A DNA stretch of 64,000 nucleotides from the human T2T-CHM13v2.0 reference genome, Homo sapiens: NCBI RefSeq assembly GCF_009914755.1, contig NC_060931.1. One strand, written 5' to 3'. A model generated the notes under the pieces. The model did no database searches and was not told the DNA's origin. It worked only from the letters and a program-made list of their open reading frames with translations. How positions within the stretch are numbered: position 1 is the stretch's first letter; every line of letters starts with the position of its first letter. Made by a program: the position numbers and the translations under genes. This document shows, in pieces, positions 16,846 through 17,633 of this stretch.

Positions 16846-17177
16846 AATGATTGAGAAGGAGGAGCCAAGATGGCCGAATAGGAACAGCTCCCGTCTACAG
16901 CTCCCAGTGTGAGCGACGCAGAAGACCGGTGATTTCTGCATTTCCATCTGAGGTACTGGGTTCATCTCACTAGGGAGTGCCAGACAGTGGGCGCAGGTCA
17001 GTGGGTGCACGCACCGTGCGCAAGCCAAACCAGGGCGAGGCATTGCCTCACTTGGGAAGCGCAAGGGTCAGGGAGTTCCCTTTCCGAGTCAAAGAAAGGG
17101 GTGATGGACGCACCTGGAAAATCGGGTCACTCCCACCCGAATATTGAGCTTTTCCGACCGGCTTAAAAAACAGCCCA

Positions 17178-17493
17178 GGCCAGGCGCGGTGGCTCACGCC
17201 TGTAATCCCAGCACTTTGGGAGGCCGAGGCGGGTGGATCATGAGGTCAGGAGATCGAGACCATCCTGGCTAACAAGGTGAAACCCCGTCTCTACTAAAAA
17301 TACAAAAAATTAGCCGGGCGCGGTGGCGGGCGCCTGTAGTCCCAGCTACTCGGGAGGCTGAGGCAGGAGAATGGCGTGAACCCGGGAAGCGGAGCTTGCA
17401 GTGAGCCGAGATTGCGCCACTGCAGTCCGCAGTCTGGCCTGGGCGACAGAGCGAGACTCCGTCTCAAAAAAACAAAAAAAAACAAACAAAAAA
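17178..17493 (+). mobile_element. AluYb8 (human-specific) in the L1PA2 5'UTR
   Basis: 7-nt duplication ctgcagtccgcagtc, ggctaacaagg, ggatcatgagg, cgggaagcgg; 13-nt TSD aaaaaacagccca (17165-17177, 17494-17506); tt/aaaa target. Confidence 0.95.
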
Positions 17494-17633
17494 AAAAAAC
17501 AGCCCACCACGAGATTACATCCCGCACCTGGCTCGGAGGGTCCTACGCCCACGGAATCTCGCTGATTGCTAGCACAGCAGTCTGAGATCAAACTGCAAGG
17601 CGGCAGCGAGGCTGGGGGAGGGGCGCCCGCCAT
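17346..17633 (-). CDS. L1 ORF0 N-terminus read through into antisense AluYb8 (putative 95 aa; expression unproven)
   Basis: [36 protein letters not shown] matches primate L1 ORF0; Kozak gcaATGg; TAG inside the Alu. Confidence 0.5.

What the first reader, a model, noticed from the sequence alone, without database searches (positions are those of the whole stretch)
17114..17633. AluYb8 may toggle an in-frame L1 ORF0-COPG2 fusion
Seen: the L1PA2 is antisense to COPG2, so its ORF0 (ATG 17633, Kozak gcaATGg) runs along COPG2 toward exon 10. Both ORF0 splice donors are intact: CAG|gtgcgg after 17528 and CAG|gtgcgt after 17114. Removing the Alu and one TSD leaves 191 stop-free nt from ATG to the second donor (…[26 protein letters not shown]|, phase 2), and exon 10 accepts phase 2 (AG|C CAT GAA = S-H-E-S-P-L-F). 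With the Alu present, a TAG at 17346-17348 lies before that donor. The first donor (106 nt, phase 1) is in frame only with exon 11; joined to exon 10 it reads an alternative frame to a TGA in exon 11. Known: the L1 antisense promoter makes ORF0 transcripts that splice to host exons. Inference: the pre-insertion allele could make a gamma2-COP whose N-terminal region (exons 1-9) is replaced by ORF0, and a human-specific Alu switched it off or rerouted it.
Basis: partly seen in the sequence, partly recalled or inferred. Interest (0 to 1): 0.8.

Follow-up and report, generated by a model that had tools for sequence, protein, structure and literature searches.

The report
Alu-interrupted L1 ORF0 inside COPG2 intron

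Summary
That covers the ORF0 ATG at 17633 (- strand), the donors after 17528 and 17114, and an Alu (17178-17493) with a perfect 13-bp target duplication. It also covers the TAG at 17346-17348, and 191 stop-free nt in phase 2, matching COPG2 exon 10, once the Alu is removed in silico.

The ATG, frame and donors are family features of young L1s: 18 of 20 other copies in this genome have the same arrangement. Matching the next exon's phase is cheap: 2 of 7 acceptors in the window accept phase 2.

The locus is already in print. Lanciano et al. 2024, Table S7, row 10 lists the 324-bp L1PA2 5' fragment (window 16854-17177, which holds the 17114 donor) as the source of an L1-COPG2 chimeric transcript. 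It is ESR1-bound in MCF-7 and also credited to Shah et al. 2023.

The Alu is very young: one identical copy and 12 more listed at 100% identity. With it present, no ATG-started frame reaches the 17114 donor.

Verdict: an ordinary nested repeat with a documented cryptic antisense promoter. The "toggle" is a correct but untested sequence consequence. Interest is low to moderate.

The parts
16854..17177 (+). 5' fragment of the L1PA2 5'UTR (324 bp), up to the Alu insertion point; it holds donor 2 on the opposite strand
   Evidence: The L1 5' end is read. It is the only + strand match to itself in 185 kb around COPG2. It equals the 324-bp entry chr7:130577156-130577479:+:L1PA2 (hg38) of Lanciano 2024, Tables S2 and S7. 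It has 17 CpG, observed/expected 0.66.
17165..17177 (+). Left copy of the Alu target-site duplication (AAAAAACAGCCCA)
   Evidence: Longest flanking direct repeat, 13 of 13 identical.
17178..17493 (+). Young Alu of the Yb lineage (body 17178-17465, A-rich tail 17466-17493). It has the same orientation as the L1 and is read antisense by ORF0 transcripts.
   Evidence: Sequence. It carries a tandem GCAGTC(C/T) duplication near the 3' end, which I take as the Yb mark from recall. In the same genome there is one identical copy, and 12 more are listed at 100% identity over at least 283 of 288 nt, among 40 scored of 993 candidates. It has 22 CpG.
17494..17506 (+). Right copy of the Alu target-site duplication
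17494..23216 (+). Rest of the L1PA2: remaining 5'UTR to 18088, broken ORF1 and ORF2, 3'UTR and poly(A). With the 5' fragment it makes about 6,034 nt, a full-length element.
   Evidence: ORF1 is split into 123 and 214 codons, and ORF2 into at least four pieces. Pfam matches are Tnp_22_trimer and RVT_1. The poly(A) is read.
17346..17633 (-). Present-day reading frame: ORF0 start (ATG 17633-17631), then 42 ORF0 codons, then a read into the antisense Alu, ending at TAG 17348-17346 (95 codons)
17526..17530 (-). ORF0 splice donor 1, CAG|GT, last exonic base 17528, phase 1, upstream of the Alu
   Evidence: CAG|GT is found at the same offset in 20 of 20 other copies.
17112..17116 (-). ORF0 splice donor 2, CAG|GT, last exonic base 17114; phase 2 only in the Alu-free reading
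   Evidence: CAG|GT is found at +191 in 19 of 20 other copies.
17634..17800 (-). Expected place of the L1 antisense promoter and its start sites (inferred, not measured here)
   Evidence: Antisense ESTs of L1HS and L1PA2-8 map within the first 600 bp of the 5'UTR (Criscione 2016, passages). The hub's table places a RefSeq 'enhancer' at 17289-17875. This stretch is 96-98% identical to other copies.
3957..4090 (-).
2966..3033 (-).

Best explanation
This is an ordinary nested-repeat arrangement. A full-length but coding-dead L1PA2 sits antisense in a COPG2 intron, itself inside an older L1. A very recent Yb-type Alu inserted into its 5'UTR, 127 nt into ORF0.

The L1 antisense promoter lies upstream of the Alu in the transcript's direction and is left intact. 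In permissive cells it works as a cryptic alternative promoter whose RNA splices into downstream COPG2 exons. Such a chimeric transcript is recorded for this locus in MCF-7 breast cancer cells.

On the Alu-bearing allele, ORF0 runs into the antisense Alu and stops after 95 codons, 232 nt before donor 2. RNA spliced at donor 2 therefore cannot encode an ORF0-COPG2 fusion. It carries a stop far upstream of an exon junction, and I infer it is a likely target of nonsense-mediated decay. RNA spliced at donor 1 to the next exon is out of frame.

The in-frame potential of the Alu-free allele is real at the sequence level. It is what about 2 in 7 positions in this gene would give, and no evidence links it to a protein or a function.

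Shown: anatomy, frames, youth of the Alu, identity of the locus with the published entry. Inferred: start site in the antisense promoter, which donor the published junction uses, decay of the RNA.
For: - Anatomy and frames.
- L1 coding capacity lost.
- No ATG-started frame reaches donor 2 with the Alu present: 4 of 4 ATGs between 17900 and 17114 stop earlier.
- No plausible rescue by splicing donor 1 into the Alu. Of 21 AG sites tested, only 2 give an open in-frame product, and both have poor pyrimidine tracts (8 of 20).
- ORF0 features are generic. Among 20 other copies, the ATG context is kept in 20, donor 1 in 20 and donor 2 at +191 in 19. ORF0 is open to that donor in 18.
- Acceptor phases in the window are 2,0,0,0,2,1,0.
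- Published chimeric transcript: Lanciano 2024, Table S7, row 10. The L1 ASP source is the 324-bp L1PA2 fragment, the partner is COPG2, it is ESR1-bound, previously identified by Shah 2023, and there is no GENCODE transcript (supplement read whole).
- Mapping of that entry to window 16854-17177.
- The 5' fragment is 34% methylated in 2102Ep embryonal carcinoma cells (Table S2).
Against: - The same Table S2 row gives 90% methylation of the 5' fragment in MCF-7, the cell line where the chimeric transcript is listed. The other nine measured lines range from 76 to 99%. Activity, if any, is probably low.
- The paper's rule does not tell a donor from an acceptor or show the start site. The junction could instead be an exonisation event.
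- I could not see which base the junction uses, nor the Shah 2023 data (not held).
- COPG2 is absent from the supplements of four other catalogues of TE-driven or L1-chimeric transcripts: Criscione 2016, 10 files; Pinson 2022, 3 files; the L1PA2 breast-cancer study PMC8044218, 7 files; and long-read CAGE PMC10760525, 1 file.
- Nonsense-mediated decay is inferred from the general rule, not tested.
Confidence: 0.8

Rival explanations
1. Before the Alu arrived (or on Alu-free chromosomes, if any still segregate), antisense-promoter RNA spliced from donor 2 to exon 10. It was translated into an ORF0-gamma2-COP fusion lacking the N-terminal part of the trunk. The human-lineage Alu switched this product off.
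For: - The frame arithmetic is exact.
- The Alu-free ORF0 has the canonical 71 codons.
- Donor 2 lies in the very fragment to which the published L1-COPG2 junction is assigned.
- ORF0 can form fusion proteins through its two donors, and 57 of about 3,200 genic loci were seen fused to a gene exon (Denli 2015 as cited in passages of PMC4859970, and PMC4908685).
- The Alu is young enough to be human-specific and perhaps polymorphic.
Against: - There is no transcript, ribosome or peptide evidence for an Alu-free allele.
- A phase match is expected at 2 of 7 acceptors.
- The product would lack about 225 of 524 Adaptin_N profile positions (extrapolated).
- Both assemblies I can speak for carry the Alu: CHM13 in the window, and hg38 as implied by the 324-bp fragment.
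- The L1 5' fragment is heavily methylated in 10 of the 11 cell lines measured.
Confidence: 0.1
2. The published L1-COPG2 junction is not promoter-driven. The L1 fragment (or L1 plus Alu) is used as a cryptic internal exon of ordinary COPG2 pre-mRNA, for example through the pyrimidine-rich ...TTTTCCAG at 17114, which also looks like an acceptor.
For: - The discovery rule asks only for one junction end in the L1 and one in an annotated exon.
- The CAG at 17116-17114 is preceded by a short pyrimidine run.
- The antisense Alu brings strong pyrimidine tracts, up to 17 of 20.
- The L1 5' fragment is 90% methylated in MCF-7.
Against: - The table's legend calls the L1 the source 'providing antisense promoter activity'. 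It also says the transcript was previously identified by Shah 2023, a study of TE-derived transcripts. I recall, but did not see, that its method requires a start site in the TE.
- Chimeric transcripts of the set fall on ESR1 knock-down as a group (text and legend).
Confidence: 0.1

Closest known systems
L1 ORF0 and ORF0-host exon fusions (Denli et al. 2015, Cell 163:583). The paper is not held; it is known here only through passages in PMC4859970 and PMC4908685.
   Same: It is an antisense ORF in a primate L1 5'UTR with a good start context and two in-ORF donors. In the Alu-free reading it has 71 codons and lies in the gene's orientation upstream of an exon of matching phase.
   Different: Here the ORF is interrupted by an Alu on the alleles seen, and no fusion transcript in frame or peptide is shown. 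I could not check whether COPG2 is among Denli's 57 fusion loci.
L1 antisense-promoter chimeric transcripts such as L1-BCAS3, L1-GNGT1 and L1-SYT1 in MCF-7 (Lanciano et al. 2024, PMC10879037, Table S7)
   Same: It belongs to the same table, the same L1 family (L1PA2) and the same cell line, is ESR1-bound, and has its partner gene downstream in the antisense direction. This locus is row 10 of 42.
   Different: It is one of only 4 of the 42 sources whose listed interval is not a full-length L1. The interval is 324 bp because the Alu splits the annotation. It has no GENCODE transcript and no long-read support is listed. Its 5' fragment is methylated in MCF-7, unlike the BCAS3 example described as unmethylated.
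Young intronic AluYb8 insertions that alter host transcripts, e.g. the polymorphic WNK1 intron 10 AluYb8 (PMC3298642, passages)
   Same: It is a recent Yb-lineage Alu in an intron, on the human lineage, with a possible effect on the transcript profile.
   Different: Here the Alu's presence or absence in populations and apes is unknown. The target is another repeat's ORF rather than host sequence.

Membership tests
L1 ORF0 | Lies on the antisense strand of a primate L1 5'UTR, downstream of the antisense promoter | tested here: met
   The ATG at 17633 (-) is about 451 nt from the L1 5' end once the 329-nt insert is discounted. The same ATG context is found in 20 of 20 other copies.
L1 ORF0 | Open frame of about 70-71 codons | tested here: not met
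   As the sequence stands, the frame runs into the Alu and ends after 95 codons. It has 71 codons only in the Alu-free reading. Among 20 other copies, 9 have 71 codons.
L1 ORF0 | Two splice donors inside the ORF | tested here: met
   CAG|GT after 106 nt, and after 191 nt in the Alu-free count. These are shared by 20 and 19 of 20 other copies. With the Alu present, donor 2 lies beyond the stop.
L1 ORF0 | Translated product | not testable with these tools
   No expression or peptide data were within reach.
L1 antisense-promoter chimeric transcript | Spliced junction between L1 5'UTR antisense sequence and a host exon | not testable with these tools
   It is reported in print for this locus (Table S7, row 10; rule). 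I saw no reads or junction coordinates.
L1 antisense-promoter chimeric transcript | Transcription start inside the L1 5'UTR on the antisense strand | not testable with these tools
   It is asserted by the table legend but not demonstrated in what I could read. The hub's RefSeq 'enhancer' at 17289-17875 overlaps the expected place.
Full-length L1PA2 | About 6 kb from the 5'UTR start to poly(A), with the family label | tested here: met
   16854-23216 minus 329 nt gives 6,034 nt. The label L1PA2 comes from the hg38 annotation used in Table S2. I made no subfamily call of my own.
AluYb8 | Yb-lineage tandem duplication near the 3' end, A-tail, target-site duplication, near-identity to many copies | tested here: met
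   The duplication is seen (its meaning is recalled, not from a tool). Yb8 versus Yb9 was not resolved.

The most novel reading that the evidence does not exclude
The documented L1-COPG2 chimeric RNA exists in two coding states, set by a very young Alu. On Alu-free chromosomes (ancestral, and perhaps still segregating) it would be an mRNA for an ORF0-gamma2-COP fusion, driven by an oestrogen-receptor-bound L1 antisense promoter. On Alu-bearing chromosomes it is a decay-prone non-coding RNA. This would be a natural presence/absence switch of a retrotransposon-host fusion protein in humans.
Probability: 0.1. Interest if true: 0.5.

Novelty: new member of a known kind. Interest (0 to 1): 0.25.

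Why it matters
If the Alu-free allele really made a translated fusion, this would be a clean natural experiment on ORF0-host fusions, whose biological role is still unclear. It could also be a source of tumour-specific peptides in oestrogen-receptor-positive breast cancer. The locus is one of thousands of ORF0 loci and one of dozens of listed L1 chimeric transcripts. No main text in the library pairs COPG2 with L1PA2, with ORF0, or with 'antisense promoter' plus LINE-1 (0 papers in each). The record sits in supplementary tables only.

Tried and rejected
- Rescue of the frame by splicing donor 1 into the Alu and out at donor 2. Of 21 AG sites, only 2 work, and both have poor pyrimidine tracts. 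Rejected.
- An oestrogen-response element in the Alu or L1 to explain the ESR1 binding. There are no sites with 1 mismatch or fewer in 16400-18200 and 2 sites with 2 mismatches, neither in the Alu. The window holds 23 such sites, so this is not above background.
- Checking the hg38-to-CHM13 offset with the second L1 of Table S2 (an L1PA7). The offsets differ by about 630 bp. I therefore relied on the uniqueness of the + strand L1 5' end in 185 kb and the equal fragment length of 324 bp.
- Other catalogues searched for COPG2 with no hit. One search also found nothing, but only one file of 4,398 characters was held there, so it is uninformative.
The first two list L1-driven transcripts in stem cells and neurons. 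The third lists human-specific insertions and could have settled whether the Alu and the L1 are human-specific.
- Earlier findings of this scan were not open.
- There are no ape genomes, no pangenome and no RNA data in these tools. Presence of the Alu or L1 in apes and populations, start sites and junction bases remain untested.

Full report
**What is there.** I read the - strand from 18500 to 16900 and checked it by script. The sequence shows the antisense face of an L1 5'UTR.
- An ATG sits at 17633 in the context GGGCAATGG.
- A donor CAG|GTGCGG has its last exonic base at 17528, 106 nt from the ATG, phase 1.
- A second donor CAG|GTGCGT has its last exonic base at 17114.
- Between the two donors lies a 316-bp Alu on the + strand (17178-17493). 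It is flanked by a perfect 13-bp direct repeat at 17165-17177 and 17494-17506.
- As the sequence stands, the ORF0 frame enters the antisense Alu and ends at TAG 17348-17346 after 95 codons.
- None of the 4 ATGs between 17900 and 17114 opens a frame that reaches the second donor.

**The Alu-free reading.** Removing the Alu and one repeat copy by coordinates gives 191 stop-free nt to the second donor, phase 2, and a 71-codon ORF0 if unspliced. My one search was one base short and was corrected. The COPG2 exon at 3957-4090 accepts phase 2 and the one at 2966-3033 accepts phase 1. The exon numbers 10 and 11 cannot be checked from the window.

**Surroundings.**
- The L1 begins at about 16854 and ends in a poly(A) at 23216. 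That is 6,034 nt without the insert, so it is full length.
- It is coding-dead: ORF1 is split into 123 and 214 codons and ORF2 into at least four pieces.
- It lies inside an older L1 of the same orientation. The flanks 16782-16845 and 23563-23598 match neighbouring parts of the L1's own ORF2 at 70% and 83%.
- A second, older-looking Alu follows the poly(A) at about 23217-23530.
- The intron from the second donor to exon 3957-4090 is 13,023 nt.

**Is it more than chance?** The ORF0 start, frame and donors are family features. The window's own genome could be searched. The 254-nt ORF0/promoter stretch gave 2,244 candidates, of which the 40 scored include the stretch itself. The other 39 are 96-98% identical. 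I fetched 20 of them and compared them.
- The start context is kept in 20 of 20.
- CAG|GT at +106 is kept in 20 of 20.
- CAG|GT at +191 is kept in 19 of 20; one copy has a 1-nt shift.
- ORF0 is open to a donor at +191 in 18 of 20; one copy has a stop at codon 25 and one is the shifted copy.
- Nine of the 20 have the 71-codon form.

The only locus-specific element of the finding is the match between donor phase and the next exon. The seven acceptors in the window have phases 2,0,0,0,2,1,0. Phase 2 is met at 2 of 7, and one or the other donor is met at 3 of 7.

**The Alu.** Its 288-nt body has one identical copy elsewhere in the genome. Twelve more are listed at 100% identity over at least 283 of 288 nt, among 40 scored of 993 candidates. 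It keeps 22 CpG. It carries a tandem duplication near its 3' end that I recall as the Yb-lineage mark. A passage in PMC3298642 gives about 2,200 AluYb8 copies in human against nine in chimpanzee. A human-lineage origin is therefore very likely, but I could not test it: no ape or population data were in reach. Both CHM13 (the window) and hg38 (the 324-bp fragment below) carry the Alu.

**What is in print.** No main text in the library pairs COPG2 with L1PA2, with ORF0, or with 'antisense promoter' plus LINE-1 (0 papers in each). The supplements of Lanciano et al. 2024 (PMC10879037) do hold the locus.
- Table S2 lists chr7:130577156-130577479, + strand, L1PA2, '3prime-truncated', closest gene COPG2 (header).
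- Table S7, row 10 of 42, names that same interval as the 'L1 ASP source' of a chimeric transcript with COPG2. It is bound by ESR1 in MCF-7, previously identified by Shah et al. 2023, seen in breast tissue, with no GENCODE transcript and no long-read entry (table read whole).
- The methods keep a junction if one end falls in the L1 interval and the other in a GENCODE exon, with at least two uniquely mapped reads.

**Mapping the entry to the window.** I fetched the rest of COPG2 plus 10 kb each side, 185 kb in all. The only + strand match to the L1 5' fragment is the fragment itself, 324 bp, the same length as the entry. The only other match is a 71%-identical - strand hit. It fits the table's second COPG2 row, an L1PA7, at a spacing of about 55.9 kb against 55.3 kb in hg38. 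The interval holds the second donor (17114) but not the first (17528). The published junction is therefore compatible with use of the second donor on an Alu-bearing reference. I did not see the junction bases.

**Points against strong activity.** Methylation of the 5' fragment is 0.34 in 2102Ep. It is 0.90 in MCF-7 and 0.76-0.99 in the other nine lines measured. COPG2 is absent from the supplements of four other catalogues.

**How it most likely works.** I put confidence 0.8 on the following. The L1 antisense promoter, untouched by the Alu, acts as a weak, cell-type-restricted alternative promoter inside COPG2.
- On the Alu-bearing allele, the RNA carries a 95-codon ORF0-Alu frame that stops 232 nt before the second donor. 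A donor-2 transcript cannot encode a fusion and should be prone to nonsense-mediated decay, which I infer from the general rule.
- Donor 1 to the next exon is out of frame and stops in the following exon.
- Splicing from donor 1 into the Alu does not rescue the frame at any acceptor with a good pyrimidine tract.
- The Alu-free allele would give an in-frame message. Its product would lack roughly the first 225 of 524 Adaptin_N profile positions, extrapolated from exon 730-918 matching positions 292-355. I judge function doubtful.

**Rivals.** Exonisation rather than promoter activity gets 0.1, because the paper's rule does not separate donors from acceptors.

**Comparison and verdict.** The thing works like the ORF0 loci and L1 chimeric transcripts already described (passages; Table S7).
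- It meets the positional and donor criteria of ORF0.
- On the alleles seen it fails the criterion of an intact frame of about 70 codons.
- The chimeric transcript itself is already listed in print.

What is new is the small point that a very young Alu separates a coding from a non-coding version of it. That is a correct sequence consequence, not a demonstrated switch. Interest 0.25.

Noticed in passing
window 16782-16857 and 23531-23600: The L1PA2 is nested in an older L1 of the same orientation. The two flanks match adjacent parts of L1 ORF2 (70% and 83% to the L1PA2's own ORF2). The stretch AAAAAAAAGTCCAG recurs at both ends, and 12 extra bases (16846-16857) lie between the left copy and the L1 5' end.
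   Followed up: partly
window 23217-23530: A second Alu, more diverged (about 88% to the young Alu), sits directly after the L1 poly(A) and inside the same flanking repeat pair. It is preceded by GCCCA, the same five bases that precede the young Alu. The order of insertion of this Alu and the L1 is unclear.
   Followed up: no
window 16854-17177 (Lanciano 2024, Table S2): The L1 5' fragment is 34% methylated in 2102Ep embryonal carcinoma cells but 88% in H1 and 76-99% in the other lines measured. In MCF-7, where the L1-COPG2 transcript and ESR1 binding are listed, it is 90% methylated.
   Followed up: partly
CHM13 chr7 between window 17177 and about 73070 (outside the window from 64001): The spacing between the L1PA2 fragment and the L1PA7 further up COPG2 is about 630 bp larger in CHM13 than in the hg38 coordinates of Table S2. 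This suggests one or more insertion/deletion differences between the assemblies in this intronic stretch.
   Followed up: no
window 17289-17875: The hub's RefSeq 'enhancer' spans the ORF0 start, the expected antisense promoter and two thirds of the young Alu. Its experimental source was not visible to me.
   Followed up: no
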